Shown one piece after another: positions 3,355 to 19,996 of a stretch of 56,094 nucleotides of DNA (its first letter is position 1; each line of letters begins with the position of its first letter). Below the pieces are notes generated by a model. The model was given only the letters and a program-made list of their open reading frames with translations, did no database searches and was not told where the DNA came from. A program made the translations under genes and the position numbers. The stretch comes from a virus (Duplodnaviria > Caudoviricetes): IMG/VR virus record IMGVR_UViG_3300033145_000771, positions 1-56,094 of that record; one strand, 5' to 3'.

Positions 3355-5279
3355 TATCCTTTGATTTTTTGGTTTGGAACTCTATGTCTAACTTTCGGCT
3401 TTGCTACAACAGGCTTCGTAGGCTTAACCGTAGGTATCTTCCCAACAGGAGGTTTACCACTAAGCCCTCCTTTGTGACCAAGCTTGCGTAGAGCACGGCT
3501 GATCTTGCTTGATTCGGCAGGACCTGCCTCCTCTAATTTATTGAGCAGACTCTGCACTTGTCCATCATGCAGTCTATCCGGCATAATACACGATGCGTTT
3601 GCCACTTCTCCCGGAGACCCCTGGCAGGGAGGTAAATCATTAACAACGGGCAGCATGGCACATCGGCAATTATGACTTGCAATTCCATTAGCAATATAGT
3701 ATGATTCGGTTGTTTCTAAATTGTAAACATAATTACTGAAATTAAAGGAGTTGATATGTACAACCGAATCGACAAAGAAATCGTTACACAAATTGTCAAT
3801 TTGTACGTTTCCGGATGGTCCGAAAATAGTGTTGCTCTGCATTTTGGATATAGCAGACGCTGTATTCGCAAACGTCTTTTGGATTCCGGTATTCATATCA
3901 GGAACCAAAGCGAGGCCGAAGCACTCAAATGGTCGCAAATGAGTCTTGAGCAACGAAAGGAACAAATTAAAGCTGCTCATGATGCGGCTAAGGGTCGGAC
4001 TGTAAGCTGGTCTACCAAATGCAAACATGCAAAAACGGTCGAAAAGAGACCAAGCAATGTCTCTGAATACGAGATTGTTGTTCAACGAAAGCTGTTTGTT
4101 AGAGGCATTCCGACCATCGCTCAGAAGGCTATCGGTGCCTATAATTGCGATATTGCTGCCAGTCCCGTCATAGTGGAAGTCTGGGGCGGAAACTGGCACT
4201 TCTTTGGTGATCACGCCCGGCGATGCGAAGAACGACTCAGCTATATCCTCAATTGTGGTTGGTTTGTTTATATCCTGCCAATCACTAAAAGATTCCCCCT
4301 GACGGAGGCCATGGCTGATAACTTGGCTTCCTATATCAAGCGAATTCGCAGGGACAAACCCTCTATTCGAGAGTATAGGATGGTTTGGTGTGGCTCTGAT
4401 TATACGACCAGTGGCTGTCTTGATAATATGAATTTTCCCCTTGTACCAACGTTTACTGGCCGCCGTAATCCTGCCTCTGGGAGATATGAGAGAATCGCCC
4501 GGTAGGCAATTTGGGTGGACAGGTATTATCCCTTTTGCCTCCGCTGCGGAATATCTTGTTTCATCCAAACCTAAACAATCGCCACAAGCACCCGGAGAAG
4601 CTGAGAATTCAACTTCAGTGACTCCCACATCTTCTAAGCCTTGTACATAGCCTATATTCTGGGCACGGGCCGTTTCGGTCCGGGCTATGGTAGCTGCACG
4701 CCTTCGGTGGGTCTTGCCGGCATATCGCTGGACCTTCTTATTAATATCGGCCGGCTTTAACTTTGGATACTTTTCTTTGTTCTCAAGAAGCCTGCGATAA
4801 TTGATAATCGACTGCGTTTGATTCTCTGTCAAGCCTACTAAGGGACGGAGTTCGCGGGCAATTTTCGGCATTCCCCGGCCTTCCTTTATCCCGGTTTTAA
4901 TGTAGGTACGAATGCCCATCTTCGTTTTCTTCGTGACTTCTCGTACCAATTCAGCGGTAAATTTTTCAGCAGCAGTAACTGCATTGACATTAAGTACGTC
5001 AAAAGCACCCTTTACCTGAAGTAACTTATAGGCATTATTTCCGCCTGTCTGCATGATTTTTAATGTAGCGGGTTTAAGCATCTCCCGTCCACGTTCCTCG
5101 ATGAAACCCCAATCGGATAACTCGGATGTAATATCCTTAATAAATTTATGTGTTAAGTCGTGACGGATCTGCTTATGGGCAAAATAAAACCAACTACGCA
5201 CAGCAATTAGCATAGTATTCTTATTCCTGCCTACTAAGCTGCTTAAATCACTCTGAATTGTCTTAGCTATAGTAATCAC
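3354..5279 (-). CDS. Minor head morphogenesis protein (MuF/SPP1 gp7-like) containing an intein
   Basis: RAATIARTETARA, C-x2-C, and HPN|CRC motif split by an intein. Confidence 0.85.
   Translation of the reverse strand: MITIAKTIQSDLSSLVGRNKNTMLIAVRSWFYFAHKQIRHDLTHKFIKDITSELSDWGFIEERGREMLKPATLKIMQTGGNNAYKLLQVKGAFDVLNVNAVTAAEKFTAELVREVTKKTKMGIRTYIKTGIKEGRGMPKIARELRPLVGLTENQTQSIINYRRLLENKEKYPKLKPADINKKVQRYAGKTHRRRAATIARTETARAQNIGYVQGLEDVGVTEVEFSASPGACGDCLGLDETRYSAAEAKGIIPVHPNCLPGDSLISPRGRITAASKRWYKGKIHIIKTATGRIIRATPNHPILSNRGFVPANSLDIGSQVISHGLRQGESFSDWQDINKPTTIEDIAESFFASPGVITKEVPVSAPDFHYDGTGSNIAIIGTDSLLSDGRNASNKQLSLNNNLVFRDIAWSLFDRFCMFAFGRPAYSPTLSRIMSSFNLFLSLLKTHLRPFECFGLALVPDMNTGIQKTFANTASAISKMQSNTIFGPSGNVQIDNLCNDFFVDSVVHINSFNFSNYVYNLETTESYYIANGIASHNCRCAMLPVVNDLPPCQGSPGEVANASCIMPDRLHDGQVQSLLNKLEEAGPAESSKISRALRKLGHKGGLSGKPPVGKIPTVKPTKPVVAKPKVRHRVPNQKIKG
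3677..3705 (+). promoter_or_regulatory. Sigma70-like promoter for antisense endonuclease
   Basis: TTGCAA(3677-3682)-17 nt-TATGAT(3700-3705); AAGGAG RBS at 3745-3750. Confidence 0.6.
3756..4505 (+). CDS. HTH + Vsr/DUF559-like PD-(D/E)XK endonuclease, antisense inside the MuF intein
   Basis: HTH (LYVSGWSENSVALHFGYSRRCIRKRL); SEYE...YNCDIA..VIVEVWGGNWH...LNCGWFV; RBS and promoter. Confidence 0.8.
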   Translation: MYNRIDKEIVTQIVNLYVSGWSENSVALHFGYSRRCIRKRLLDSGIHIRNQSEAEALKWSQMSLEQRKEQIKAAHDAAKGRTVSWSTKCKHAKTVEKRPSNVSEYEIVVQRKLFVRGIPTIAQKAIGAYNCDIAASPVIVEVWGGNWHFFGDHARRCEERLSYILNCGWFVYILPITKRFPLTEAMADNLASYIKRIRRDKPSIREYRMVWCGSDYTTSGCLDNMNFPLVPTFTGRRNPASGRYERIAR

Positions 5280-5521
5280 CGGCTTATAATTACCCCCTGA
5301 CGAATCAGTTTATTAAAATTATAAGCTTCAATTCCTTCAACAACTACACTCTGCACTGCCCGTTCAAACTGTTGCTGCTCAAGCTCTTTAGCCCGGGCAA
5401 CTCGCTTATTGGCAGGTTTGCATTTGTGCATCTTTTTCTTCTCTTCAAATTCTGCAAGACAAGCTGCCTCGAATTCTTCGCCACAATCACTACAAACAAA
5501 AGTTTCGATTTTTACGGTCAT
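5276..5521 (-). CDS. Small Zn-finger protein
   Basis: C-x2-C...H-x-C; in late operon. Confidence 0.55.
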   Translation of the reverse strand: MTVKIETFVCSDCGEEFEAACLAEFEEKKKMHKCKPANKRVARAKELEQQQFERAVQSVVVEGIEAYNFNKLIRQGVIISR

Positions 5522-5660
5522 GTTCGGCTTTAGCCTCTTTTATACTTGCTTCTTCATCGAAAAATTTCACAGTCTTTACTCTGTCTTTTCTGAAGTTGAC
5601 AGTTCGTTCACAAAGATACGTTTGAGCTACTTTCACTCCACTTCTATCAGTATCAGACAT

Positions 5661-6263
5661 CTATTCCCCAAAATCAGTCGATGGAAAGAACGCGCCGTCT
5701 GCCAATCTCCCAGTGCGTAATGATTTAGTAGGCAATGTGACCCTCTGCCTGTTTTTCACAGCCTGAACCCACACACGTTGCGCTCCTTTGGAATAGGCAT
5801 CAGTAAGAACCGGAGGTTCGGCTGGATACAATATTGGCGGACTATCAGTAACAGCTAAAACTAAAAGTGTTCGGCTATCACTTAAACCGATAATATTCGT
5901 AGCAGTCAAATTCAAATAATGAACGCCAACTACTGGTGCCATAAAAATGAAGTCAAAGTGTTGGCTCCATCCGCCTCCCAACTCCTTGACTTTATCTCCT
6001 TTGGTTACTGTTATTCCTTCCATGCCGGTAATAGTCAACTCTGTATCAAGCCCCCATTCGTTCCAAGCCGCCACATGATACACACTTGAAATATTTGGCC
6101 CGGTAATCGTCCACGCCATTACATCGCTATCGCAACAATTGACGTCATATTCAAACGGAACGTCGTATGGAATCGGAGGTCGTTCAATAGCTCCAGCTAA
6201 ATTTACCAGTCCATACATTAGCATGAATATAACAAAAGCAATCAACCAGATGTACAACTTCAT
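5661..6263 (-). CDS. Hypothetical membrane or secreted protein
   Basis: N-terminal hydrophobic helix; coupled to portal stop. Confidence 0.55.
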   Translation of the reverse strand: MKLYIWLIAFVIFMLMYGLVNLAGAIERPPIPYDVPFEYDVNCCDSDVMAWTITGPNISSVYHVAAWNEWGLDTELTITGMEGITVTKGDKVKELGGGWSQHFDFIFMAPVVGVHYLNLTATNIIGLSDSRTLLVLAVTDSPPILYPAEPPVLTDAYSKGAQRVWVQAVKNRQRVTLPTKSLRTGRLADGAFFPSTDFGE

Positions 6264-7621
6264 TCTATTTCTCCTTCCAAAAATACTTCTTCTGCTTTGC
6301 TTAACAATTCGTCCGGTTCTCCCACTTCAACAAAGGCAGAACCTATGTAAAATTTATCGCCTTCTGGATATCCTTTTCCTATGCCTAAATCTCTTCGTGC
6401 TTCATTCGGTGTTTCAATACCATGCTCAACTAAGGAATTATGTTGTGTTACCTCAGCATCGTAGTTGCGGCAATCTATATCATTGAATTTGAACTCATAA
6501 ATTTCCGATTGCAATAGTTTATCGTTTATAATTTCTTCGAGGTCCAACTGCAATGGCTCAATTACGCTTTGCACATAGATCTTTGTCGCCTCAGATGCAA
6601 CATTACCACCTAACTTGCCTATTACTCTAACCCCTATTCTTTCAGGCGGCATAGAATATGCGATCATAATATTGTTCCGGCGCTCCTGTTCGTACAGCTT
6701 AAAACTACCTTCTTTTGGATTTCCTACGAGAGGTGTGTATATGAACTTGCATCCATCCGGTTGTTTAACGACCATAGTGCTATGAGCATTTTCTGTTCCT
6801 CGAAGTCTATTATTAACAAATTGCTTTACTTGCTTATCAGATCCTTCTTCCCACTCTCCTTCAAGAACAATAATAGCAGCAGGGATGCCATAATTCTGAA
6901 AGAACGCTAAGTTATAATCTCGTTGACTGATTGCTCCAATCACATCTCCAATAGCAGGAAGCACGTCTGGGACACCGTAGTAATCCGAACGAGGGTAGTA
7001 ATTCTTATGAAAGATTAATTCGTTAGCGGCATTTGATTTAGTTTTGCTTTCTCTTCCGTCCTTCGCTGTAATATCTTTTTCGTAGCCGAACTTTTTGAAC
7101 CATACCTTTTTGGTGTCCCGAATCTGGCAGTATTTGTTTTTCTCTCGATGGACTTTTATAGTATAAGCAGGTACATGATAAATTTCCGCTACATGCTCTT
7201 TATCTTTAGCGCGAATAACTTCTAAACCGAACCATCCGATTGAGCCCCAATCAATAAGCAGCTCCTTCAATACGGCACGAAAAGAACAACCTGGATTAGG
7301 GTGTTCTAAGAATGCTTGAATCCTTTCGAGTTCTGTTTTGTCATCCTTCTTATCTGTTCGAAGTTGCAGTGACCAACCAAGTCCTGCTACGTCGATTGCA
7401 ATCTGCTTAACACAACGAGCGAAAGTAACGTTGGACTCAAGCAACACTAAGAACGCTGCAGGAGAATACGGAGGTTCAACTAAGCCTGCCTGAGTCAAAA
7501 ACTGTTGGTTTTGCTTAAGCTGCTTGCTGCTCTCTTTCTTTGCTTTGGCCAATAGATCGTAAGCGTAAATACCTTTAGTTGTCTGAACCAATACGTTGCC
7601 TTTTTTCTTTTCCTCAGCCAT
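6260..7621 (-). CDS. Portal protein (PBSX/HK97-like)
   Basis: HPNP, YYGVPD, FFQNYGIP, MPPERIG, TPNEAR motifs. Confidence 0.9.
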   Translation of the reverse strand: MAEEKKKGNVLVQTTKGIYAYDLLAKAKKESSKQLKQNQQFLTQAGLVEPPYSPAAFLVLLESNVTFARCVKQIAIDVAGLGWSLQLRTDKKDDKTELERIQAFLEHPNPGCSFRAVLKELLIDWGSIGWFGLEVIRAKDKEHVAEIYHVPAYTIKVHREKNKYCQIRDTKKVWFKKFGYEKDITAKDGRESKTKSNAANELIFHKNYYPRSDYYGVPDVLPAIGDVIGAISQRDYNLAFFQNYGIPAAIIVLEGEWEEGSDKQVKQFVNNRLRGTENAHSTMVVKQPDGCKFIYTPLVGNPKEGSFKLYEQERRNNIMIAYSMPPERIGVRVIGKLGGNVASEATKIYVQSVIEPLQLDLEEIINDKLLQSEIYEFKFNDIDCRNYDAEVTQHNSLVEHGIETPNEARRDLGIGKGYPEGDKFYIGSAFVEVGEPDELLSKAEEVFLEGEIE

Positions 7622-7899
7622 TATTTTTTCTCTGATGCTGGTTCGAATCTAATATATGATTGCTTGTGGTCTTTCAACCACTTCTTTGCTTGCTTGATTG
7701 TGAATTTACTTTTCGGAAAACGTATAGATTGCAACGTTGTTGTTGTTTTTCCTTTCAAAGGTCCACCATAGAACATGATACCTTCTTTACTGGTATTGAA
7801 CACACGAACTCGTGCAAACAACCCCGGACTCTTTATTCGGGCACTATGAAAATTTGGATACGGCATTTGTTGGCTTCTTTCCTTGATGTAATATTTCAA
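7621..7899 (-). CDS. Hypothetical protein (likely start MPYPN)
   Basis: Basic ORF coupled to the portal gene. Confidence 0.55.
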   Translation of the reverse strand: MKYYIKERSQQMPYPNFHSARIKSPGLFARVRVFNTSKEGIMFYGGPLKGKTTTTLQSIRFPKSKFTIKQAKKWLKDHKQSYIRFEPASEKK

Positions 7900-7907
7900 A
7901 CTCTTGT

Positions 7908-8186
7908 TTAAGGATTTCTTGATATCCTTGTTTTATTATTAGCATCTTCAACAGTAACACCTACTTTCTTCAACCCTTCTCTTATGCGATCGGCAAGCTC
8001 ATATTCGGCTTTCTCTCTCAACACCCGACGAACACTGATGAGAAGATTTTCCATGATAATCATCTTTTCTTTTTCTGATTTTCTTTGCTGTTCGATACGA
8101 CCGAATTCTTCCTCTAAATAATCGAAAAGACCCATCAAGGATTCTACCTTGTACCTCGCCTCTTTTTTGATTTCCTGGAAATCCAT
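7908..8186 (-). CDS. Protein with a CysRS C-terminal (anticodon-binding)-like segment
   Basis: REKAEYELADRIREGLKKVGVTVED resembles the CysS C-terminal motif. Confidence 0.5.
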   Translation of the reverse strand: MDFQEIKKEARYKVESLMGLFDYLEEEFGRIEQQRKSEKEKMIIMENLLISVRRVLREKAEYELADRIREGLKKVGVTVEDANNKTRISRNP

Positions 8187-8380
8187 ATCAAAACTTCTTT
8201 ACGTTTAACCGTAATTCTGCCACCAAGTTAACAATCTTTTCAAACGATAAGTATTACGACGTCCCCAAGAGCCTCTCATCTTTTCATTTAGCGACGAATA
8301 AAAGCCGGAGTCTATCTTCGGTTCTTTCGGCTCATCCTCGTATGTCATCTCAGATACACTGTTTGGATAACTTGTAGCAC

Positions 8381-11300
8381 TCATGCTGACACCGAACCTT
8401 TCTTTCTTGGTCTGTCTACGGTGTACAATATGTACCGTACAACGTCAAGCGTATGGTCGTTTTTCGCCAAAGGTAAATCTTTAGGATCCCTAGAGGCGGA
8501 GCCCTTTGGGTATTGGTACATGGCCATCTCCCGAGCTGTATTCCGGCAGGACTTAAAGATATATAAGCTCGGCTTCCCATTCGCCTTAACTTTGAGTTTA
8601 CTTTGTACAAGTTCAATACCACGAGCCACATCGTTTCGAGCTATCAGAGTAGGTATGCCGGCTTTGCGAAGCTCGCCTCTGTCCTCAGCATTTTCAGGGT
8701 CTGCGTAAGTTCCTTGATATTTCTCATTAGAACTTCTCGCTTTGATATTAGCAATATGCTCCTGAATGCCGGTTTTGGCTCTGTAATATTCGCGATATAC
8801 ATACCAGTTCTCATCCTTATCCTTAGCAAGCCACAGACAATTGCCACAAACCATCGGCCTGCCTCTACGCCTAACGACTAAAGTATTATACTTAGGAACT
8901 TCAACACAAAATATCATATCGTTATAATCTATTGACATGATTTTCATTTTTTGTACCGCAGCCAACTTAGCTTTGCAAATAGTAAGAATATAATAATCTC
9001 GCATTCCAGAATAACCTGCTGTCTTTGACGTTTTGATAGTCGTAGATTTTCCCAACAAAGCATAAACTTCCTGTAAATCATCTATTAGATTTTTACAAGT
9101 AGAAAAGTGCTGCATTCTATTTCTATCGCTTACTCCATCCCCCATCAAATGTCCTTTGACTAAGTTTTCTAATTCATCCCGACCCCAACTATAAATTTCT
9201 CTTGGAATATTCTTATTCTTATTCGGCGACCATTTTGTATTATTTAAGAACCAACTCCATAAATCTTTGCTTTGAATCCGATAATCTTTTACTCTATTAT
9301 CTGAGATTGCAGTTGTATATTTCCAACCGAGATTATTTAGTATTCTTTCCACTTCCTTACATTTTGTTTTTTGAGCAATTCTTACAAACCAACCGGCTTT
9401 ACCTTTAAGAAGCGATCCGTCAGCAAGCCATAATCCTACAAATTCAGCGAATGCGGTCTTATTTACAGGAGATAGAATGGTCTTAGAACGTTTTCCATGA
9501 GGTACTATAAAATCAACAGTCTTTTTGGCTGATATAGTGTTCCACCCTACAGGTATATCATAACAAGACAATTTTTCAGCAGGTACAAATTTCCATTTCT
9601 TTGGCTTTCTTCTATCTACAACCACCATCTTATGATTGGGCGTTACACAAAAGTTAGCACTTTCAACTCTAGGTGTACTAATTAACATTTTCCCTTTGTA
9701 TCGCTGTTTAATATATTTAACTGGTTTTTGATATTTTATTATTTTTGAAAGAGGATCTATAGTGGCAACTTTTTCTTTTTTATTAAGGTTAGCAAACAAT
9801 TTCCACCCTTCGTTAGTTAATATCTCTGTTTCTTTATCGTAGCAGACGAAAGGATTGGTAAAACCAAAATCAATACCTCGGTAGAGTGTCCAACCATCTG
9901 GAATCCTGAAAGGCTTTATAACATGTATCGAACGGTTGAAGTTTTTATATACAGCGCCATAATAGCTTGCGAACTTACCCTCAATACGAGTAGCCTGCAC
10001 TCCGTCCGGCCACTCAGCAATCATATTATCTATTCGTTGATCCTCTATAAACCCTCCTCGACTCTTCCTGTTATCGTTTAAGTTGAAATGAAATATTTCG
10101 TCTGTTGCGGGTAGTTCCTCTATTCTTTCTTCTAAAAAGGTTTGAGGCATAATAGGTGTCATGCTCCAACTGAGATAACCCTGATAAGTTATCAGTCGTG
10201 CTTGAGTTTCATGTAGTATGCCTTCGAAATCATGGAGACACTGTTCGTCGTAATGAGCAGATTTTATTGCTCTTCCCTGAAACAATGTTCGTCCCTGGTT
10301 GAATGCTTTGAACTCAATGGTATTGCCTGTATTTAAATATATTTTACGAGGCACTTTGTCCTGACCATAACGAATATCAATAATATGATGTTGAGGAATG
10401 AATTTCTGAAGATACTGTTCCCATAGAATATCTCGAACTTGTTCCCAGGTCTCAATTCCTACCCAATGAATTCCTTTAGCTTGCTTAAAAGGATGAATAT
10501 TGAGAGCTAACTGTGCGAGATCCATCATATTGGTATATGTTTTCCCGCTGTTGTGATGAATAACGCCACCTGACAAATAATTGTGATAAATAGGCACATT
10601 AAAATCCCAAATATCATCAAATCTCTTTACATCCAAACTAATTACCGCTATACTGTCATTTGATTTTAATTTAGGAGAATTACATGAAACGTAAGCATCC
10701 TGTTCGTGATCGTGGCCTACCACGGAAATGTTATGATTACCCAGTCGATTCAATCCGCCAATGGATTGCTGAGGGCAAAACTCAGGCATGGATTGGCAGT
10801 AAACTTGGAGTTGATGCAAAGTTAATTCATAAAGTTTGCAAAAAGCATGGCATAAAGTGCCAAAGAACCGGTCCGCGTTCCGGGCCTGAATGCCTATTTT
10901 GGAAAGGAGGTCGAATAATCGATAAAGACGGCTATGTCTCTGTCTATTGTCCGGGGCATCCTTATGCCAAAAAGCCAAACAAGAAGTATGTCCTTGAACA
11001 TCGCTTGATAATGGAACTTTCTCTTGGCCGTTACTTAAAGAGATACGAAATTGTCCATCACAAAAATGGGATAAGAAATGATAACCGTCTTGTAAATCTT
11101 GAGCTTTTTCATTCAAATGCAGAACATCTTCACAAGGAACTAAAGGGTCATTGCCCGAAATGGACGAAGGCTGGAAGAGAAAGGATGTTGGCTGGAGTTG
11201 TGAAATACTGGTCCAATTACAAAAAGAATCTAAAACCAAATGATTCGCCGAGCAAACAATAGATTGCCCATTTGACAGCTTGAGTTCATATAGCTGCGCC

Positions 11301-11572
11301 GGTGTTTTCTTAAATGGCTTATCTGCTTTTGCAATAACCTTCTTTTGTCCATCGAAAGCGTAAACATGAAATGGCTTATCTATGCTGGATACTTCTTTTT
11401 CTATTTTTTCTACAGGATCGTAAATCAATTGTTCTCCGCCTAAACACAAGTTGCCTCCGAACATCCATTGAATAGCGGCCTGCGATTTGAAATAAGCTCG
11501 TTGATCCTCGCTAAGAGGCTTATATAAAGCAATGTGTTTGCCTACTCGCTTTATTTGTTCCACACTAAGCAT
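8381..11572 (-). CDS. terL: Terminase large subunit with two inteins
   Basis: Spliced Walker A GGNL|SGKT, Walker B HYDEQ, SMTP, nuclease GIDFGFTNPFV|CLW, DHTLDVVRY. Confidence 0.95.
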   Translation of the reverse strand: MLSVEQIKRVGKHIALYKPLSEDQRAYFKSQAAIQWMFGGNLCLGGEQLIYDPVEKIEKEVSSIDKPFHVYAFDGQKKVIAKADKPFKKTPAQLYELKLSNGQSIVCSANHLVLDSFCNWTSISQLQPTSFLFQPSSISGNDPLVPCEDVLHLNEKAQDLQDGYHFLSHFCDGQFRISLSNGQEKVPLSSDVQGHTSCLAFWHKDAPDNRQRHSRLYRLFDLLSKIGIQARNADRFFGTLCHAFCKLYELTLHQLQVYCQSMPEFCPQQSIGGLNRLGNHNISVVGHDHEQDAYVSCNSPKLKSNDSIAVISLDVKRFDDIWDFNVPIYHNYLSGGVIHHNSGKTYTNMMDLAQLALNIHPFKQAKGIHWVGIETWEQVRDILWEQYLQKFIPQHHIIDIRYGQDKVPRKIYLNTGNTIEFKAFNQGRTLFQGRAIKSAHYDEQCLHDFEGILHETQARLITYQGYLSWSMTPIMPQTFLEERIEELPATDEIFHFNLNDNRKSRGGFIEDQRIDNMIAEWPDGVQATRIEGKFASYYGAVYKNFNRSIHVIKPFRIPDGWTLYRGIDFGFTNPFVCYDKETEILTNEGWKLFANLNKKEKVATIDPLSKIIKYQKPVKYIKQRYKGKMLISTPRVESANFCVTPNHKMVVVDRRKPKKWKFVPAEKLSCYDIPVGWNTISAKKTVDFIVPHGKRSKTILSPVNKTAFAEFVGLWLADGSLLKGKAGWFVRIAQKTKCKEVERILNNLGWKYTTAISDNRVKDYRIQSKDLWSWFLNNTKWSPNKNKNIPREIYSWGRDELENLVKGHLMGDGVSDRNRMQHFSTCKNLIDDLQEVYALLGKSTTIKTSKTAGYSGMRDYYILTICKAKLAAVQKMKIMSIDYNDMIFCVEVPKYNTLVVRRRGRPMVCGNCLWLAKDKDENWYVYREYYRAKTGIQEHIANIKARSSNEKYQGTYADPENAEDRGELRKAGIPTLIARNDVARGIELVQSKLKVKANGKPSLYIFKSCRNTAREMAMYQYPKGSASRDPKDLPLAKNDHTLDVVRYILYTVDRPRKKGSVSA
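8840..9844 (-). mobile_element. Terminase intein 2 (335 aa) with in-frame LAGLIDADG endonuclease
   Basis: CYDKETEILT...VTPNH...FVGLWLADGS...GHLMGDG...VCGN|C. Confidence 0.9.
10626..10654 (+). promoter_or_regulatory. Sigma70-like promoter for antisense HNH
   Basis: TTTACA(10626-10631)-17 nt-TATACT(10649-10654); AGGAG RBS at 10673-10677. Confidence 0.65.
10684..11262 (+). CDS. HTH + HNH endonuclease, antisense inside terminase intein 1
   Basis: WKGGR..DKDGY, YVLEHRLIME..LGR.L...EIVHHKNGIRNDNRLVNLEL. Confidence 0.9.
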   Translation: MKRKHPVRDRGLPRKCYDYPVDSIRQWIAEGKTQAWIGSKLGVDAKLIHKVCKKHGIKCQRTGPRSGPECLFWKGGRIIDKDGYVSVYCPGHPYAKKPNKKYVLEHRLIMELSLGRYLKRYEIVHHKNGIRNDNRLVNLELFHSNAEHLHKELKGHCPKWTKAGRERMLAGVVKYWSNYKKNLKPNDSPSKQ

Positions 11573-11915
11573 GATTCATTTTCAGCTCATCTTGAATTGC
11601 TTTAGCTTCTTCGTCGGACATTACAGCATGAGCAATTCCAAATTCACCGCTTACTGAACTAAGATCGGGTATGCGTTTTCGCATTACAGCAACTAAAATA
11701 GTTTTGTCTTCAAAAGCCTGCTCGACGAAATGCTCGGTTAAATTCATTCCTTTTCGCTTCTCGACTCTCGCGATAGCTTCTTCGAATTGAGCAATGGTTA
11801 TTCGATTACGGGTACCCTTTGGTCTGCCAGCAGGATTACCTGATTGCCCCTTCTGGAAGCGGTGTTTGTACTTAACAGAATTATCAGGCTTCTTTGTTTT
11901 TCCTTTTGTATCCAT
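11565..11915 (-). CDS. terS: Terminase small subunit (DUF5681-like)
   Basis: FQKGQSGNPAGRPKG; overlaps terL start. Confidence 0.8.
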   Translation of the reverse strand: MDTKGKTKKPDNSVKYKHRFQKGQSGNPAGRPKGTRNRITIAQFEEAIARVEKRKGMNLTEHFVEQAFEDKTILVAVMRKRIPDLSSVSGEFGIAHAVMSDEEAKAIQDELKMNHA

Positions 11916-15094: not shown

Positions 15095-15097
15095 ATA

Positions 15098-15175: not shown

Positions 15176-15229
15176 GGGCAGAAAGTTAGCTTTGAACTGG
15201 GGCGTTAAAAATCTGAAAGTGAGGATATT

Positions 15230-16000: not shown

Positions 16001-16027
16001 CCCATAAGGGCGGAAAGAAGATGTAAA

Positions 16028-16630: not shown

Positions 16631-16663
16631 GTCAACAAATGCATAGGCTGAAAGAAGGAGTAA

Positions 16664-17248
16664 ATGATTATGGAAATCAAGGTTTACATCCAAAAAATTA
16701 AAGAGCTTGGCGCGTGCGGTGAGGCACTGAAAGAAGCACTGGCGTATGAGACATCGGAAGAACTATGGGCCAATTGCAAACGTGGCGATTGGATGCTTTG
16801 GCTCGTCGGCAGATTGTCAGGAGCGGCTGGTTGTGAAAAACGAAAACAGTTGGCGCTTACTTCTTGCAAATGCGCCAGACTTTCTTTGCGATATATTCCG
16901 CAAAATGAATTACGGCCTTTGAAAGCCATTGAAACGGCCGAGCAATGGGCAAGGGGAGAAAATAGCGTGACCCTTAAAGACGTGCGAGCTGCTGCTGCTG
17001 CCGCTGCTTATGATACTGTTGCTGCTGCTGCTGCTTATGCTTCTGCTGCTGCTTATTCTGCTGCTGCTTATTCTGCTGCTGCTGCTTATTCTGCTGCTGC
17101 TTATGCTGCTTATGCTTCTGCTGCTGCCGCCGCTGCTTCGGATGCTGATGCTTATGCTGCTGCTGCTGATGCAAAGATCCTATCTCAATGTGCAGATATA
17201 GTCAGGGCGGACTATCTAGATGTTGATGATTTATGGAAAGAAGAATGA
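16664..17248 (+). CDS. Hypothetical protein with Ala/Tyr-rich repeat tract
   Basis: AAGGAG RBS; RGDWMLW, RPLKAIETAEQW, AAAY repeats. Confidence 0.75.
   Translation: MIMEIKVYIQKIKELGACGEALKEALAYETSEELWANCKRGDWMLWLVGRLSGAAGCEKRKQLALTSCKCARLSLRYIPQNELRPLKAIETAEQWARGENSVTLKDVRAAAAAAAYDTVAAAAAYASAAAYSAAAYSAAAAYSAAAYAAYASAAAAAASDADAYAAAADAKILSQCADIVRADYLDVDDLWKEE
16987..17172 (+). repeat. GCT-rich coding microsatellite
   Basis: (GCT)n with TAT/TCT interruptions. Confidence 0.85.
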
Positions 17249-17250
17249 TT

Positions 17251-17979
17251 ATGGAAGAAAAACGTAAAGCCATATTATATAGTCGGTTCAGCCCCCGAAA
17301 AAACGAAAACGAATGTGAATCCATCGAGGCTCAGTTCGACTTCTGCCGGAAATATTGCAAGGATAACGATATTGAGATCGTAGCTGAGTTTTCAGACCGG
17401 GCGCTGTCGGGCGGCGACGAGGAGCGTCCGGGACTGTGGGCGGCAATACACGCTCTCAAGAAGGGTTACGTGCTGGTTGTTTATCGGCTCGACAGACTGG
17501 CTCGCAGCGTGTATCTCAGCGTAATTATCGAAAGGACAATCAAGAAAAGGAACGCGACTTTTCTAAGTACCGTTGGCGAAAGGACGTGGAATGATAGCAA
17601 TGAGGATTTCCTTACTCGTAATCTCCTGCAAGTATTCGCTGAATTTGAGCGCAGGGTGATTTCCGCCCGGACCAGTGCTGTCATGCTCAGACATCAAGCT
17701 AATGGAAGGTTGATGGGCTCTGTACCGCCTTATGGCTGGCAACTCGATCCTGAGAATCCCAAACGGATTATCGAGAATCCTAAAGAGCGTATTATCGCAA
17801 ACCAAATACTGAGACTACACCGCAAGGGACTGTCATTGCGTAAAATCGCTGCTGAATTGCACAGGCTGAATTACTTGCCGAGGAAGGTGAGGAAGAAGTT
17901 TAAAGGTCGCACAGTCTACGTTAAAGGCCATTGGCAGCCACAGACAATTTCCGCTATCCTTAAACGAATGAAAAAATAA
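17251..17979 (+). CDS. Serine recombinase (resolvase/invertase catalytic domain plus C-terminal DNA-binding region)
   Basis: LYSRFS catalytic Ser, SG...RPGL, RLDRLARS, AEFERRVI, PPYGW. Confidence 0.9.
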   Translation: MEEKRKAILYSRFSPRKNENECESIEAQFDFCRKYCKDNDIEIVAEFSDRALSGGDEERPGLWAAIHALKKGYVLVVYRLDRLARSVYLSVIIERTIKKRNATFLSTVGERTWNDSNEDFLTRNLLQVFAEFERRVISARTSAVMLRHQANGRLMGSVPPYGWQLDPENPKRIIENPKERIIANQILRLHRKGLSLRKIAAELHRLNYLPRKVRKKFKGRTVYVKGHWQPQTISAILKRMKK

Positions 17980-17981
17980 AA

Positions 17982-18022
17982 CCTGCCCCCGGACAAGTCG
18001 GCGTGAGACCGCCGAGAGCAGG
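17982..18022. terminator. Hairpin between convergent operons
   Basis: CCTGC...GCAGG enclosing TCGGCG/CGCCGA. Confidence 0.4.
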
Positions 18023-18036
18023 CCATAAAAAGATAA

Positions 18037-18219
18037 CTATTCGATTTTGCCATATCTCACTTTAATCATCGCATAAGTCTCTTTATAACAGTTGACGACG
18101 TTCTCGCCACCACACTCTATGCACTTGCAGTTCCGCTTATCGCTCACAAACGGCCAGTGGCAGTCTTTGCAGTATTGAGGGTAGAAGATTCGCTCGGTCA
18201 TTGCTTCCTTACCATTCAA
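18037..18219 (-). CDS. Small Zn-ribbon protein
   Basis: Two C-x2-C pairs. Confidence 0.55.
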   Translation of the reverse strand: MNGKEAMTERIFYPQYCKDCHWPFVSDKRNCKCIECGGENVVNCYKETYAMIKVRYGKIE

Positions 18220-18225
18220 AGTTTT

Positions 18226-18636
18226 TCATTTGTCCAGTACCCCCTTAATCAATTCAATAGCATCCCAGACGTTCCTATGGCACTGCTCTCCGTCCCGCCG
18301 GGCTATTAGGAATTCCCGGACTATTACTACAGGCTTCTTTTGATGACCCTTTATCCTTGCAATGGCATCGTCTATTGTGAGTGCGTTCTTGTGATGATCC
18401 CTGACAGATACCAAGAAGCTCAGGACTTCAACCAAGGCGTCCTCCCACCTCTCTTCCGGCGTTATACAATCATTAACCTTTGCCAGTTTTATATTTACCT
18501 GACTGTCAGACATTATAGGGTTTGTCGAGTGTTTTGGCATTTTGTTTTGCCTCCCTTCTTGCAGGATCAACGCTGTCCATACATCTTTGCGAACACCAAT
18601 ACTCATCTTCATCCGGCAGGTAAATTGGATTATCAA
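18226..18636 (-). CDS. Hypothetical protein (true start probably MPKHST)
   Basis: GGAGG before internal ATG. Confidence 0.5.
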   Translation of the reverse strand: MIIQFTCRMKMSIGVRKDVWTALILQEGRQNKMPKHSTNPIMSDSQVNIKLAKVNDCITPEERWEDALVEVLSFLVSVRDHHKNALTIDDAIARIKGHQKKPVVIVREFLIARRDGEQCHRNVWDAIELIKGVLDK

Positions 18637-18712
18637 GCGGATCCCTGAGTTTCTTCCTACATCCCTTACACTGGCATAAAAACTGCCTGGATTGTTGTGC
18701 TTTGCGTCTCAT
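18506..18712 (-). CDS. Small Zn-binding protein
   Basis: C..C...WCS.RC; ATGA overlap with MTase stop. Confidence 0.5.
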   Translation of the reverse strand: MRRKAQQSRQFLCQCKGCRKKLRDPLDNPIYLPDEDEYWCSQRCMDSVDPARREAKQNAKTLDKPYNV

Positions 18713-19494
18713 TCGAATAACGCTCCTAATGTCCTAATCGCCTTTTCCGCTTGAGCAGGAATTACCCCGTTGCCCAGGAGCCTAAGTCTGTCCATCCAAT
18801 AGGCAAGCCCATCATCCATTCTCGGAACATCGGAGATTTCTCTAAGTCTCGGCGGCCAAGGTGGAGGAGTACATCTCGTAATTTTGGTCCGCGTCGTAAT
18901 CCGCTCGTTTTGCTTATACGAGACCAAGTATTCCCCTCTGTAATTACTGGGCAACTGCCCCCCTGGGATTCCGCTGTTCGTGGCGTTGGCAAGCACAAAT
19001 AGCCGTTGCCGTGTCGCCGGGGCTCCAACTTCCCACGCTGTAAACAGTCCTGCCTCAACTGAGTAACCCATATTTCGTAGGCTTCGATAAACTTCGGGGA
19101 ATCCGAGGGTAAGGTGTCCGGCGACGTTCTCGAAGACGCACCAAACAGGTCTAACTGCCTCGACGATTCGAGCAATATGCGGCCAAAGGTGTCGGGGATC
19201 GTCGGTTCCCTGTCTCTTGCCAGCGAGGCTGAACGGCTGGCACGGAAATCCTCCCATAACGATGTCCACCCGTCCTCGAAAAGGCTCCGCATTGAAGGTT
19301 TTAAGATCCGTCCAGATAGGTGCTGCATCCATTTTACCCGCTTCAATCTTTGAAACCAAGTTCGCGCAAGCGAACATTTCGATCTCCACATAGCAGATTG
19401 TTCTAAGAGAGGGCATAACTCTTTTGACTCCAAGCTCAAGACCTCCATAGCCCGTGCAGAGGGATAAACAGGTAAATTCTTTGGTAAAATCCAC
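18709..19494 (-). CDS. C5 cytosine DNA methyltransferase, main polypeptide (likely GTG start 19494)
   Basis: Motif I SLCTGYGG, IV GGFPCQPFS, VI ENV, VIII RQRLF, X LLGNGV; motif IX absent from this frame. Confidence 0.9.
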   Translation of the reverse strand: MDFTKEFTCLSLCTGYGGLELGVKRVMPSLRTICYVEIEMFACANLVSKIEAGKMDAAPIWTDLKTFNAEPFRGRVDIVMGGFPCQPFSLAGKRQGTDDPRHLWPHIARIVEAVRPVWCVFENVAGHLTLGFPEVYRSLRNMGYSVEAGLFTAWEVGAPATRQRLFVLANATNSGIPGGQLPSNYRGEYLVSYKQNERITTRTKITRCTPPPWPPRLREISDVPRMDDGLAYWMDRLRLLGNGVIPAQAEKAIRTLGALFE

Positions 19495-19496
19495 AT
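18762..19496 (-). CDS. Alternative-frame methyltransferase subunit carrying motif IX
   Basis: 244-codon overlapping frame ending SPMFREWMMGLPIGWT. Confidence 0.7.
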   Translation of the reverse strand: MWILPKNLPVYPSARAMEVLSLESKELCPLLEQSAMWRSKCSLARTWFQRLKRVKWMQHLSGRILKPSMRSLFEDGWTSLWEDFRASRSASLARDREPTIPDTFGRILLESSRQLDLFGASSRTSPDTLPSDSPKFIEAYEIWVTQLRQDCLQRGKLEPRRHGNGYLCLPTPRTAESQGGSCPVITEGNTWSRISKTSGLRRGPKLRDVLLHLGRRDLEKSPMFREWMMGLPIGWTDLGSWATG

Positions 19497-19996
19497 TAGT
19501 TCTTGACACCTGTCAACCTTTCTATTATTGTAATAGTATTTATGAAAGGAATACGATGAGTTGTATACCAGATATTAAAACTACCAAGAAAATGTATAAG
19601 CTTTATCAACAGGGATTTAGTTTGGCTCAAGTAGGAAAAGCGTTTGGAGTAAGCAGACAAGCAGTATATGACCGCTTTCATGTTCGCAATCTTGAGTTGC
19701 GCACAGTCAAGCCATTGCCATTTATTATGTTTGAAGGCAAAAAATATACGCGTAGAAAATTGGGATATTATGCCTGCACTAACGGCGACAGACACTACCT
19801 GCATCGAGTTATATGGAAGTCTATAAATGGCAAAATACCACCAGGTTATGACATTCACCATATAGATGGTGATAGAACCAATAATCATATTGATAATCTT
19901 GAATTGATTACAAAATCTGAACATTCGTCTAAATATCCTCACCACAAAAATCAGTACACAAGCTGATACATCTAAGTTCTTCGGTATTATCCACAT
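19496..19996 (-). CDS. Open frame from duplicated MTase 5' end through the antisense of the HNH (possible coupling ORF)
   Basis: Starts MWIIPKNL; its TAA overlaps ATG of MWILPKNL (TAATG). Confidence 0.45.
   Translation of the reverse strand: MWIIPKNLDVSACVLIFVVRIFRRMFRFCNQFKIINMIIGSITIYMVNVITWWYFAIYRLPYNSMQVVSVAVSAGIISQFSTRIFFAFKHNKWQWLDCAQLKIANMKAVIYCLSAYSKRFSYLSQTKSLLIKLIHFLGSFNIWYTTHRIPFINTITIIERLTGVKN
19503..19531 (+). promoter_or_regulatory. Sigma70-like promoter for HNH, -35 within a palindrome
   Basis: TTGACA-17 nt-TATTGT; TTGACA-CC-TGTCAA; GAAAGGA RBS before ATG 19556. Confidence 0.6.
19556..19966 (+). CDS. HTH + HNH endonuclease, antisense, inserted at MTase 5' end
   Basis: GFSLAQVGKAFGVSRQAVY; YLHRVIW...DIHHIDGDRTNNHIDNLEL. 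Confidence 0.9.
   Translation: MSCIPDIKTTKKMYKLYQQGFSLAQVGKAFGVSRQAVYDRFHVRNLELRTVKPLPFIMFEGKKYTRRKLGYYACTNGDRHYLHRVIWKSINGKIPPGYDIHHIDGDRTNNHIDNLELITKSEHSSKYPHHKNQYTS

What the first reader, a model, noticed from the sequence alone, without database searches (positions are those of the whole stretch)
3669..19996. Recurring system: self-promoted HTH-endonuclease genes nested antisense in host genes whose sense frame stays open
Seen: three plus-strand nuclease ORFs (3756-4505, 10684-11262, 19556-19966) lie inside minus-strand genes. Each has an N-terminal HTH, a -35/17-nt/-10 promoter and an RBS, and the opposite strand is stop-free across each. Known: intein homing endonucleases are normally in-frame domains between the splicing halves, as in intein 2 here. 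Inference: these mobile elements decouple nuclease expression from the host gene (own timing, possible HTH autoregulation, antisense interference). The antisense-derived junk peptide is removed by splicing (inteins) or bypassed by translational coupling (MTase). Two different nuclease folds suggest independent origins. Novelty needs a literature check.
Basis: partly seen in the sequence, partly recalled or inferred. Interest (0 to 1): 0.95.

Follow-up and report, generated by a model that had tools for sequence, protein, structure and literature searches.

The report
Backwards nuclease genes inside phage genes
One phage genome carries three selfish DNA-cutting-enzyme genes written backwards inside or against host genes whose own reading frame is kept free of stop codons, a layout that is real and widespread but already partly described in recent preprints.

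Summary
Three plus-strand nuclease genes lie antisense to open minus-strand frames. They sit in a MuF-like head-gene intein (Vsr-like nuclease), a terminase P-loop intein (HNH), and just upstream of a C5-methylase (HNH).

Pfam or fold matches and codon-position patterns show that the plus strand codes. Synonymous resampling predicts 7.0, 9.4 and 3.8 antisense stops; none is seen.

Both intein layouts recur. 79 of 80 (Vsr-like) and 80 of 80 (HNH) related viral loci keep both frames open. The closest terminase relatives (23 of 23) and the single MuF relative found lack the inteins, so the elements are mobile.

The methylase case is a 5' insertion that duplicated the gene start. In relatives lying antiparallel to their neighbours, 1 of 84 Leu/Ser codons would give an antisense stop, against 32 of 95 in the other relatives.

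Own promoters, HTH autoregulation and antisense interference remain untested.

Antisense Vsr-like and LAGLIDADG nucleases in phage inteins are in a 2025 preprint. A same-strand hidden HNH in a methylase was published in 2025. I found no paper on an antisense HNH in an intein or on the 5'-leader form.

This scan has noted the same layouts on other DNA many times. Verdict: new variant of a known kind.

The parts
3354..5279 (-). MuF-like head-morphogenesis (minor capsid) gene, 641 aa precursor; 361 aa after splicing
   Evidence: Pfam Phage_Mu_F 7.2e-6 and Intein_splicing 1.6e-10. PHROG head protein 6.4e-43. Lengths.
3669..4508 (-). Intein of 280 aa (residues 258-537) inserted in the HPN|CRC motif. 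It begins CLPGDS, has TPNH as block B, and ends SHN before Cys+1.
   Evidence: Boundaries. An intein-free relative reads VHPRCRCAMLP (L368). In the AF2 model the Hint parts have pLDDT 82-95, and residues 129-241 are below 50.
3756..4505 (+). ORF1: HTH plus Vsr-like (PD-(D/E)XK) nuclease gene of 249 aa. It runs codon for codon antisense to the intein, and its stop codon is the antisense of intein Leu2.
   Evidence: 19 homologues. 511 tblastn-confirmed relatives in viral contigs. Plus-strand codon signature for residues 1-200. AF2 pLDDT 86. Foldseek top matches 3r3p and 1vsr. Register.
3672..3705 (+). Two overlapping promoter-like sites (ATGACT-17-TATAGT and TTGCAA-17-TATGAT) that lie antisense to intein block F/G codons. 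An AAGGAG box stands at 3745-3750.
   Evidence: These are consensus matches only; no transcript evidence.
8381..11572 (-). Terminase large subunit gene, 1063 aa precursor with two inteins; 429 aa after splicing
   Evidence: PHROG terminase large subunit 8.3e-29. Lengths. 23 of 23 closest relatives are intein-free at both sites.
10550..11446 (-). Terminase intein 1 of 299 aa (residues 43-341) in the Walker-A P-loop, GGNL|C...HHN|SGKT
   Evidence: Pfam Intein_splicing 1.9e-10. Boundaries. Empty alleles read GGNLSGKTY.
10684..11262 (+). ORF2: HTH-HNH nuclease gene of 192 aa, antisense to intein 1 in an offset register
   Evidence: HNH_3 1.3e-8. PHROG HNH 9.9e-28. 183 homologues. At least 576 viral relatives. 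81 of 81 keep both frames open. Codon position 3 varies far more than positions 1 and 2 for residues 18-170.
10626..10654 (+). Promoter-like site TTTACA-17-TATACT (10 of 12). An AGGAG box stands at 10673-10677.
   Evidence: A similar site stands at the same offset in the two closest relatives, L136 and L137.
8840..9844 (-). Terminase intein 2 of 335 aa (residues 577-911), with a conventional in-frame LAGLIDADG endonuclease
   Evidence: LAGLIDADG_3 1.4e-5. Boundaries. Absent from 23 of 23 closest relatives.
19556..19966 (+). ORF3: HTH-HNH nuclease gene of 136 aa, transcribed divergently from the methylase
   Evidence: HNH_3 6.6e-20 and HTH_7 4.4e-4. Relatives at 52-76% identity beside or inside C5-methylase genes. 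Plus-strand codon signature 0.171/0.127/0.43.
19503..19531 (+). Promoter-like site TTGACA-17-TATTGT (10 of 12). An AAGGA box stands at 19546-19550.
   Evidence: Consensus match only.
19496..19996 (-). 166-codon leader ORF. It consists of a duplicated methylase 5' remnant (MWIIPKNL...) followed by the codon-aligned antisense of ORF3. Its TAA stop overlaps the ATG of methylase frame B (TAATG).
   Evidence: Open by chance at a fraction of 0.012. TTA/CTA/TCA avoidance in antiparallel relatives is 1 of 84 codons against 32 of 95.
18709..19509 (-). C5 cytosine methylase read in two overlapping frames. Frame A (to 18709) carries motifs I-VIII and X. Frame B (19496-18762) carries a motif IX-like segment.
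   Evidence: Pfam DNA_methylase 2.2e-32. phrog_1008 1.7e-11 for frame B. Both frames are open end to end in 43 of 43 viral relatives and in phage C75C1.

Best explanation
The 56-kb phage genome has been colonised by three independent free-standing homing-endonuclease genes that sit in reverse orientation to their host genes.

Two of them lie inside inteins: a Vsr-like nuclease in the MuF HPN|CRC intein and an HNH in the terminase P-loop intein. Most likely each invaded a mini-intein. The host gene is still translated straight through, because selection removes every codon of the nuclease gene whose antisense would be a stop. The meaningless linker peptide leaves with the intein at protein splicing. 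The nuclease, made from the opposite strand, cuts intein-free alleles and so spreads the whole intein.

The third gene, an HNH, entered the 5' end of a C5-methylase gene at motif I and carried with it a fresh copy of the gene's start. The old 5' stump now heads a stop-free 166-codon frame that runs antisense through the nuclease gene and ends on the new methylase start. This keeps ribosomes on the operon transcript and hands them to the methylase.

Shown here: the plus strand codes, the host frames are open by selection, the layouts recur, empty alleles exist, and the splicing motifs are intact.

Inferred: expression from the elements' own promoters, cleavage specificity, actual splicing, and the anti-polarity or coupling role of the leader.
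For: Coding strand.
- Pfam HNH_3 hits fall only on the plus frames.
- GC skew rises from about -0.2 to about 0 over ORF1 and ORF2.
- Plus-strand codon position 3 is the most variable. ORF1 family, residues 61-150: 0.349/0.290/0.541. ORF2 family, pairs at 90% identity or more: 0.023/0.019/0.101. ORF3 clade: 0.171/0.127/0.43.
- The ORF1 model has pLDDT 86 and its best matches are I-Bth0305I and Vsr.
- The minus-frame model of the same DNA is unstructured over intein residues 129-241.

Open frames by selection.
- 0 of 3000, 0 of 3000 and a fraction of 0.012 of synonymous resamplings stay open.
- 79 of 80 ORF1-family loci and 80 of 80 ORF2-family loci, plus the window, keep the minus frame open.
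- 0 of 35 distant HNH ORFs have any open antisense frame.
- Relatives of ORF3 antiparallel to their neighbours have 0, 1, 0, 0 and 0 TTA/CTA/TCA codons. The same-orientation or unknown-context relatives have 5, 4, 3, 1, 10 and 9. Fisher p = 2e-9 at codon level, not corrected for phylogeny.

Inteins and mobility.
- Junction motifs were found in 64 of 71 (N-terminal) and 67 of 71 (C-terminal) distinct MuF loci, and in 74 of 79 and 54 of 79 distinct terminase loci.
- 23 of 23 closest terminase relatives, and the single close MuF relative found, are intein-free.
- 43 of 43 relatives of the methylase lack an HNH at that site.
- One contig (the source of L005 and L351) carries the MuF element but an intein-free terminase.

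5' duplication. The remnant and the new start share the first 8 codons with 5 of 24 bases different (my count on the sequence). L261 and L260 show the same kind of duplication.
Against: - There is no transcript, peptide or cleavage evidence. No sequencing run was listed.
- Promoter-like sites are not enriched in the region overall (42 against 35.1 +/- 5.9). Only 22-25% of family members have a site of 9 of 12 or better upstream.
- An SD-like box was found in only 19 of 65 (ORF2 family) and 33 of 67 (ORF1 family) members. My choice of start codons may be partly to blame.
- ORF1 has no sequence-level match to any solved structure (0 hits at E up to 10), and no Foldseek match is at or below 1e-3.
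- In L267 the antisense frame ends about 100 nt inside the methylase gene, and in L266 it ends about 180 nt before the next gene. Stop-start coupling is therefore not general.
- The antiparallel ORF3 relatives are few: five sequences in about three lineages.
- One ORF1-family locus (L031) has no open minus frame.
Confidence: 0.8

Rival explanations
1. The plus-strand ORFs are non-coding shadows. On this view the real endonuclease domain is the in-frame middle of each intein on the minus strand, and the plus frames stay open only as a by-product.
For: In the codon-aligned register both frames look conserved. The minus-frame alignment of MuF inteins shows invariant F111, H112 and D114 in its middle. 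PHROG head-protein profile 15127 aligns across residues 175-515 of the precursor.
Against: - The conserved minus-frame stretch VPVSAPDFH lies codon for codon antisense to the plus-frame stretch VEVWGGNWH, which holds invariant residues E141, G145, W147 and H148 (register).
- Variation peaks at plus-strand codon position 3, not position 1. In ORF2's offset register it is lowest at plus position 2, which is minus position 3.
- No Pfam nuclease or other domain matches the minus-frame middle, while HNH_3 matches the plus frame.
- The minus-frame middle has pLDDT 30-45; the plus-frame protein has 86.
Confidence: 0.03
2. The nuclease genes are decaying relics that are no longer expressed. The inteins and the leader persist by vertical descent only, and the double open frames are inherited rather than maintained.
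For: There is no expression evidence. Strong promoter-like sites are present in only about a quarter of family members. The 2025 preprint notes that some antisense Vsr-like inteins look vertically inherited (section 15).
Against: - The plus ORFs end in a stop codon in 78 of 80 (ORF1 family) loci; the other two run off contig ends. They are open across the match in all 80 ORF2-family loci, at 37-67% identity.
- They carry a clear purifying-selection signature.
- The inteins are absent from all 23 closest terminase relatives and from the single close MuF relative found, which points to recent gain.
Confidence: 0.08
3. In the methylase case the open antisense frame has no function of its own. It is either chance, or a leftover from an ancestor that sat in frame inside a methylase ORF and was translated through. 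The nuclease is simply a divergently transcribed neighbour.
For: - The chance of an open frame in this window alone is 0.012, which is not negligible for a feature picked after the fact.
- Earlier notes of this scan describe antisense HNH genes translated through inside methylase ORFs.
- In L261 the antisense frame is joined to remnant frame A, while here it is joined to frame B.
- In L266 and L267 the frame does not end at a start codon.
Against: - Stop-making codons are avoided in about three lineages that differ at 43-54% of third codon positions. This argues for continuing selection rather than inheritance.
- 0 of 35 distant HNH genes, and none of the six same-orientation or unknown-context close relatives, have the frame open.
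Confidence: 0.2
4. The terminase-embedded HNH is not a homing enzyme but a domesticated packaging helper, like the HNH proteins that assist cos cleavage next to terminase genes.
For: HNH proteins beside terminase genes are known packaging factors (PMC3592412; abstract seen in the listing only).
Against: - ORF2 belongs to the HNH_3 type with an N-terminal HTH, typical of free-standing homing endonucleases.
- It lies wholly within the intein.
- The 23 closest terminase relatives lack both the intein and the HNH.
Confidence: 0.04

Closest known systems
Non-canonical actinobacteriophage inteins with anti-sense VSR-like or anti-sense LAGLIDADG homing endonucleases (Gosselin, Arsenault and Gogarten, bioRxiv 10.1101/2025.01.02.630785; sections 8 and 15 and passages read). 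That preprint cites Gorbalenya 1998 and Gogarten 2002 for the Synechocystis DnaX intein; I did not read those two papers.
   Same: The homing endonuclease is encoded on the strand opposite the intein, and the host frame is open across it. The host proteins include minor capsid (MuF-like) and terminase large subunit. The VSR-like nuclease resembles 3R3P (I-Bth0305I). The proposed origin is invasion of an intein by a free-standing endonuclease gene.
   Different: - The preprint lists no anti-sense HNH; all 5 mentions of HNH concern in-frame or generic cases.
- It says nothing on promoters (0 occurrences).
[quoted passage not shown] Here ORF1 ends at intein codon 2 and overlaps the whole N-terminal Hint lobe.
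- The preprint calls these architectures rare. Here at least 511 and at least 576 viral loci were found, and the Vsr-like type occurs in 104 GenBank phage records, with only the host gene or a hypothetical protein named under the matches in the 25 rows I saw.
ShiLan domain: a hidden out-of-frame HNH endonuclease inserted in a mycobacteriophage DNA methylase (Arsenault, Gosselin and Gogarten 2025, PMC11855218; abstract and section 19 read)
   Same: An HNH homing-type gene is associated with a phage DNA methylase gene. The host-strand frame has no stops across the insertion. There is no intron or intein.
   Different: In ShiLan the HNH is on the same strand in another frame, lies inside the methylase, and is thought to remain in the protein as a loop. 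Here the HNH is antisense and sits at the 5' end next to a duplicated gene start. The stop-free frame is a separate leader ORF that ends on the regenerated start. The paper has no occurrence of 'antisense' or 'opposite strand'.
Fractured genes: split inteins with a free-standing GIY-YIG or Vsr-like endonuclease gene between the halves (Dassa et al. 2009, PMC2677866; passages read)
   Same: A free-standing Vsr-like endonuclease gene lies inside an intein coding region. The invading element supplies start signals for the downstream gene part, as the methylase case also shows.
   Different: In fractured genes the endonuclease gene has the host's orientation and breaks the gene and intein in two. 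Here it is inverted, so the intein stays contiguous.
I-Bth0305I / EDxHD (Vsr-like) homing endonuclease family (Taylor et al. 2011, PMC3239194; passages read)
   Same: A Vsr-like catalytic core follows N-terminal DNA-binding modules. The protein is associated with self-splicing elements in phages.
   Different: There is no sequence-level match, and the fold match is only marginal (E 1.3e-3). I-Bth0305I is intron-encoded on the sense strand.
Cyanobacterial dnaX intein with an out-of-frame LAGLIDADG endonuclease (Phillips, DeSimone and Gogarten, bioRxiv 10.64898/2026.09.14.751524; abstract and section 17 read)
   Same: The endonuclease is read in a frame other than the intein's. The endonuclease frame is under purifying selection and the intein frame is relaxed. 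Secondary invasion of a mini-intein is proposed.
   Different: That intein is bacterial and chromosomal, with a LAGLIDADG endonuclease and a different host gene.

Membership tests
Intein (Hint-domain protein-splicing element) | Cys, Ser or Thr at intein position 1, and C-terminal His-Asn followed by Cys, Ser or Thr | tested here: met
   MuF intein: HPN|CLPGD...ASHN|CRC. Terminase intein 1: GGNL|CLGGE...IHHN|SGKT. Terminase intein 2: NPFV|CYDKE...VCGN|CLW.
Intein (Hint-domain protein-splicing element) | Profile match to the splicing domain above the curated cut-off | tested here: met
   PF14890 scores 41.4 and 41.2 bits against a cut-off of 35.8 on the precursors. In the six-frame search the scores were 43.1 bits (MuF) and 32.5 bits (terminase, below the cut-off).
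Intein (Hint-domain protein-splicing element) | Insertion in a conserved host motif, with contiguous intein-free alleles in relatives | tested here: met
   23 of 23 closest terminase relatives read GGN(L/Q)S(G/S)KTY or GGNLASKTY without an insert. MuF relative L368 reads VHPRCRCAMLP.
Intein (Hint-domain protein-splicing element) | Protein splicing actually occurs | not testable with these tools
   Inferred from the intact motifs and from the essential nature of the terminase.
Inteins with an antisense-encoded homing endonuclease (Gorbalenya 1998, Gogarten 2002, Gosselin et al. 2025) | A complete endonuclease ORF on the opposite strand within the intein, with the host frame open across it | tested here: met
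   ORF1 lies within 3669-4508 and ORF2 within 10550-11446. Both frames are open in 79 of 80 and 81 of 81 loci.
Inteins with an antisense-encoded homing endonuclease (Gorbalenya 1998, Gogarten 2002, Gosselin et al. 2025) | The endonuclease frame is under purifying selection | tested here: met
   Codon position 3 is the most variable in the plus frame.
Inteins with an antisense-encoded homing endonuclease (Gorbalenya 1998, Gogarten 2002, Gosselin et al. 2025) | The nuclease is of the reported types (LAGLIDADG or VSR-like) | tested here: not met
   Met for ORF1 (Vsr-like). Not met for ORF2, which is HNH_3. The preprint reports HNH only in frame.
EDxHD / Vsr-like homing endonucleases (I-Bth0305I) | Vsr-like catalytic fold | tested here: inconclusive
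   The best Foldseek matches are 3r3p_A (E 1.3e-3, probability 1.00, TM 0.63 over the target) and 1vsr (5.3e-3). None is at or below 1e-3. phmmer against PDB sequences gives 0 hits.
EDxHD / Vsr-like homing endonucleases (I-Bth0305I) | Conserved catalytic residues of the composite EDxHD motif | tested here: inconclusive
   E106, D132, E141 and H148 are invariant in 16 sequences. I made no residue-by-residue superposition on 3r3p, so the equivalence is not shown.
EDxHD / Vsr-like homing endonucleases (I-Bth0305I) | Cleaves the element-free allele of its host gene | not testable with these tools
   Needs an enzyme assay.
HNH_3 (PF13392) phage homing-type endonucleases | Profile match above the curated cut-off | tested here: met
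   ORF2 scores 34.7 bits and ORF3 70.9 bits against a cut-off of 24.8. The six-frame search finds both on the plus strand.
ShiLan-type hidden HNH insertion in a phage DNA methylase | HNH ORF associated with a methylase gene, with no stop in the host-strand frame across it and no intron or intein | tested here: met
   The 19496-19996 minus frame is open. There is no Rfam family in the window and no Intein_splicing hit there.
ShiLan-type hidden HNH insertion in a phage DNA methylase | HNH on the same strand in another frame, with the insertion retained inside the methylase polypeptide | tested here: not met
   The HNH is antisense. The open frame ends in a stop (TAATG) before the regenerated methylase start.
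Fractured genes (split intein plus free-standing endonuclease gene) | Host gene and intein broken into two ORFs by a same-orientation endonuclease gene | tested here: not met
   Both intein-bearing genes are single ORFs of 641 and 1063 aa.

The most novel reading that the evidence does not exclude
Stop-free antisense coding may be a general, selected way for free-standing homing-endonuclease genes to live backwards inside essential phage genes and operons. It would not be a rare accident. It works with splicing (inteins, with at least two nuclease folds and two codon registers) and without splicing (a translated leader that runs through the nuclease gene and delivers ribosomes to a regenerated host start). 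The reverse orientation would itself be favoured, because it gives the nuclease its own promoter and timing. About 75-100 codons of ORF1 would then encode two folded domains at once: the Hint N-lobe on one strand and the nuclease core on the other.
Probability: 0.3. Interest if true: 0.7.

Novelty: new variant of a known kind. Interest (0 to 1): 0.5.

Why it matters
Gene callers and curators miss these nuclease genes. In the 25 GenBank phage rows I saw for the Vsr-like type, and in Pectobacterium phage Ymer for the HNH type, only the host gene or a 'hypothetical protein' is annotated. The load of mobile elements in phages is therefore undercounted.

The layouts are natural cases of long two-strand coding under measurable double constraint. 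They are useful for studying how overlapping genes evolve.

They also bear on how inteins acquire their endonucleases, through invasion of mini-inteins by free-standing genes.

The methylase case suggests that a host-strand frame can be kept open purely so that it is translated, without any splicing. That is directly testable.

Tried and rejected
- DNA searches of the two intein-bearing genes against GenBank phages found nothing.
- A single-sequence scan for ORF2 gave only 3 distant loci. The alignment-based scan was needed.
- No sequencing run was listed for window 3300-11600 ('none was listed'). Read laying was therefore not used, and there is no evidence on expression either way.
- Rfam gave no family at gathering score in the whole window, so I have no evidence of an intron around any of the three genes.
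- The search for operator-like inverted repeats at the three promoter-like sites gave only a 9-nt palindrome at the ORF1 -35 element. HTH autoregulation is unsupported.
- phmmer of ORF1 against PDB sequences gave 0 hits.
- The shadow-ORF reading was considered and rejected on the codon-position data.
- Paper searches found no description of antisense endonucleases in inteins. Searches did find the Gogarten-lab papers. One search was badly framed and gave nothing useful.
- Gorbalenya 1998 is not held and is cited second-hand.
Supplemental Table 1 and the supplemental figures of the 2025 preprint may hold cases that I could not see, including any antisense HNH.
- Complex prediction and the protein atlas were not used.
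- Rows dropped. L033 and L080 (partial or mis-extended ORFs) were left out. Identical sequences were collapsed before the counts. L271 (62% identity over a partial match) was left out.

Full report
WHAT IS THERE

The window is a complete 56,094-bp virus record with direct terminal repeats. Almost all long ORFs are on the minus strand.

- ORF1 (3756-4505, 249 aa) lies within a 641-aa MuF-like head-morphogenesis gene.
- ORF2 (10684-11262, 192 aa) lies within a 1063-aa terminase large-subunit gene.
- ORF3 (19556-19966, 136 aa) lies opposite a 166-codon frame directly upstream of a C5-methylase.

INTEINS

The MuF gene carries an intein of 280 residues (window 3669-4508) in the motif HPN|CRC.

The terminase carries two inteins. 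One of 299 residues (10550-11446) splits the Walker-A loop as GGNL|SGKT. The other, of 335 residues (8840-9844), has an ordinary in-frame LAGLIDADG domain.

All three inteins have Cys1 and a terminal Asn followed by Cys or Ser. The MuF intein ends SHN and terminase intein 1 ends HHN; intein 2 ends CGN, without the usual penultimate His.

ORF1 lies wholly inside the MuF intein, and ORF2 lies wholly inside terminase intein 1.

WHICH STRAND CODES

HNH_3 matches ORF2 (1.3e-8) and ORF3 (6.6e-20) in the plus frames. Nothing but the splicing domain matches the minus-frame middles.

GC skew is about -0.2 over the minus-strand genes and rises to about 0 over ORF1 and ORF2.

ORF1 has 19 full-length homologues. 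Its AlphaFold model has pLDDT 86. The best structural matches are the catalytic domain of the homing endonuclease I-Bth0305I and E. coli Vsr, but the E-values are marginal (1.3e-3 and 5.3e-3). There is no sequence-level PDB match.

I built codon alignments of relatives to see where variation falls.

- ORF1, residues 1-200: variation is highest at plus-strand codon position 3. For example, residues 61-150 give 0.349/0.290/0.541 in pairs at 50-70% identity.
- ORF1, residues 201-249: the pattern reverses. This is where the DNA also encodes the intein's first splicing blocks (69 distinct ORFs; L033 and L080 dropped).
- ORF2, residues 18-170: position 3 again dominates (0.023/0.019/0.101 in pairs at 90% identity or more). 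Residues 171-192, which overlap block B, show the minus-frame pattern (74 distinct ORFs).
- ORF3 and its two close relatives give 0.171/0.127/0.43.

The minus-frame model of the MuF intein has confident Hint parts (pLDDT 82-95). Residues 129-241 form a stretch of 113 residues with pLDDT below 50. The conserved minus-frame stretch VPVSAPDFH lies codon for codon antisense to the plus-frame stretch VEVWGGNWH, which holds invariant residues of the nuclease family.

ARE THE OPEN HOST FRAMES MORE THAN CHANCE?

ORF1 and ORF3 lie codon against codon with the host frame. ORF2 lies in an offset register.

I resampled synonymous codons with this phage's usage. The expected numbers of antisense stops are 7.0, 9.4 and 3.8; none is observed. 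The frame stays open in 0 of 3000 trials, 0 of 3000 trials, and a fraction of 0.012.

RECURRENCE

ORF1 family:
- A profile scan of viral contigs found 511 confirmed relatives of ORF1.
- Among the best 80, 79 have a minus-strand stop-free frame across the whole match, inside stretches of 277-1102 codons. The exception is L031.
- In 64 of 71 distinct loci the junction H..C[LVFIM] stands at the plus ORF's stop.
- In 57 loci the stop codon is the antisense of the intein's second codon.

ORF2 family:
- At least 576 relatives were confirmed.
- All of the best 80, plus the window, keep the minus frame open in the same register, inside stretches of 337-1205 codons.
- P-loop junction motifs were found in 74 of 79 (N-terminal) and 54 of 79 (C-terminal) distinct loci.

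Cultured phages:
- The Vsr-like type occurs in 104 GenBank phage records (Salmonella 62, Pseudomonas 15, Gordonia 8 and others). In the 25 rows listed, only the head gene or a hypothetical protein is named under the match.
- In Pectobacterium phage Ymer the HNH type lies antisense inside a 754-aa 'hypothetical protein' next to the portal gene.

MOBILITY

All 23 closest relatives of this terminase (58-79% identity) have a contiguous P-loop and no second intein. The one close MuF relative found is intein-free. One contig carries the MuF element but an empty terminase (L005 and L351).

THE METHYLASE CASE

The methylase is read in two overlapping same-strand frames. Frame A carries motifs I-VIII and X. 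Frame B starts MWILPKNL and carries a motif IX-like segment. Both frames are open end to end in 43 of 43 viral relatives and in phage C75C1. This recalls M.EcoHK31I, whose beta chain with motif IX is encoded in another frame within alpha (PMC2836561, passages read).

None of the 43 relatives has an HNH at this site.

In the window, the minus frame opposite ORF3 starts with MWIIPKNL. This is a diverged copy of the frame-B start, with 5 of 24 bases different (my count on the sequence). In frame A the copy continues as a diverged motif-I segment. It then runs antisense through ORF3 and stops in TAATG on the frame-B ATG, 14 nt after the frame-A GTG.

Close relatives of ORF3 (52-76% identity) are regularly tied to C5-methylase genes:
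- L261 has the same layout, with the antisense frame joined to a frame-A remnant.
- L260 has two tandem endonuclease insertions at the methylase 5' end, each with a 5' remnant.
- L262, L263, L265, L268 and L270 have the HNH in the methylase's orientation, splitting the gene or fused to it.

The five relatives antiparallel to their neighbours (the window, L260, L261, L266, L267; about three lineages) have 0, 1, 0, 0 and 0 TTA/CTA/TCA codons among 84 Leu and Ser codons. The six same-orientation or unknown-context relatives have 32 among 95. Fisher p = 2e-9, at codon level and not corrected for phylogeny. None of 35 more distant HNH ORFs has any open antisense frame.

Stop-start coupling fits the window and L261. 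It does not fit L266 or L267.

PROMOTERS, RBS AND HTH

Each ORF has a 9-10 of 12 sigma-70-like match with a 17-nt spacer and an AGGAG/AAGGA box. Over the whole region, such matches are no commoner than in shuffles (42 against 35.1 +/- 5.9).

Within the families, a match of 9 of 12 or better is found upstream in 24.6% (ORF2 family) and 22.4% (ORF1 family) of members. Control windows inside the ORFs give 2.8% and 4.0%. The ORF1 site lies in the antisense of conserved intein block F/G codons, so its conservation is confounded.

HTH matches are all below Pfam's cut-offs. No operator-like repeat was found. No RNA data could be obtained.

WHAT IS KNOWN

A 2025 bioRxiv preprint on actinobacteriophage inteins (10.1101/2025.01.02.630785; sections 8 and 15 and passages read) reports anti-sense LAGLIDADG and anti-sense VSR-like endonucleases in inteins of minor capsid, terminase and other genes. 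It attributes them to invasion by free-standing endonuclease genes, and it cites Gorbalenya 1998 and Gogarten 2002 for earlier antisense LAGLIDADG cases. It lists HNH only in frame and does not mention promoters.

A 2026 preprint describes an out-of-frame LAGLIDADG endonuclease in the cyanobacterial dnaX intein (10.64898/2026.09.14.751524; abstract and section 17 read).

The ShiLan paper (PMC11855218; abstract and section 19 read) describes a same-strand, out-of-frame HNH inside a phage methylase whose frame stays open. It has no mention of antisense.

Dassa et al. 2009 (PMC2677866) and Taylor et al. 2011 (PMC3239194) define the Vsr-like homing endonuclease family, in split inteins and in an intron. 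The passages I searched mention no antisense case.

My paper searches found no description of an antisense HNH inside an intein, nor of the 5'-leader form at a methylase. Supplements were closed and may hold such cases.

Earlier notes of this scan describe the same three layouts on many other genomes.

VERDICT

- Case 1 is a new member of a kind already in a preprint.
- Case 2 adds a nuclease class and a very large family.
- Case 3 is an antisense, 5'-end variant of a published type.

Overall this is a new variant of a known kind, of moderate interest.

Noticed in passing
window 18709-19509, minus strand; L216 2494-3936; L217-L259: The C5-methylase is encoded in two almost fully overlapping same-strand frames. 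Frame A carries motifs I-VIII and X. Frame B, which starts MWILPKNL, carries TRD-like W.TP repeats and a motif IX-like ...LMGLPxGWT segment. Both frames are open end to end (233-628 codons) in 43 of 43 viral relatives and in phage C75C1. This resembles M.EcoHK31I alpha/beta (PMC2836561), but here the second frame spans the whole gene.
   Followed up: partly
L260 615-1738 (metagenome contig): Two endonuclease genes are inserted in tandem at the 5' end of one methylase. One is an antisense ORF3-like HNH. The other is a sense-strand classical HNH fused to a remnant of about 38 codons of methylase frame B. The intact two-frame methylase follows. The methylase 5' end and motif I look like a hot spot for endonuclease insertion.
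   Followed up: partly
L262, L263, L265, L268, L270 (metagenome contigs): ORF3-like HNH genes stand in the same orientation as C5-methylase fragments. They lie after about residue 30-38 or residue 174 of the methylase, or are fused in frame in a 433-aa ORF. These may be methylase genes split by endonuclease genes.
   Followed up: no
window 29592-29681, 33103-33258, 34983-35138, 36713-36784, minus strand: There are four further HNH-type matches on the main coding strand. Two are PF01844 matches above the cut-off and two are PF13392 matches below it. Together with the Vsr-like, LAGLIDADG and two antisense HNH genes, the phage carries about eight nuclease modules.
   Followed up: no
window 19995-20018: A tandem 12-nt direct repeat (ATTCCAGCCCCT / ATTCCAGCGCCT) spans the end of the 64-aa upstream ORF and the start of the leader ORF. 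It may be a scar of the insertion or recombination event.
   Followed up: no
window 19503-19516: The -35 element of the ORF3 promoter-like site is part of the small palindrome TTGACA-CC-TGTCAA, which lies between the divergent HNH and methylase starts. It is too short for the repeat finder to report.
   Followed up: no
window 3669-4190 (both strands): About 75-100 codons appear to encode two confidently modelled folds at once. The Hint N-lobe (intein residues about 31-105, pLDDT 87-95 apart from a dip at 70-77) lies on the minus strand. The C-terminal half of the nuclease core (ORF1 residues about 147-221, pLDDT 77-95) lies on the plus strand.
   Followed up: partly
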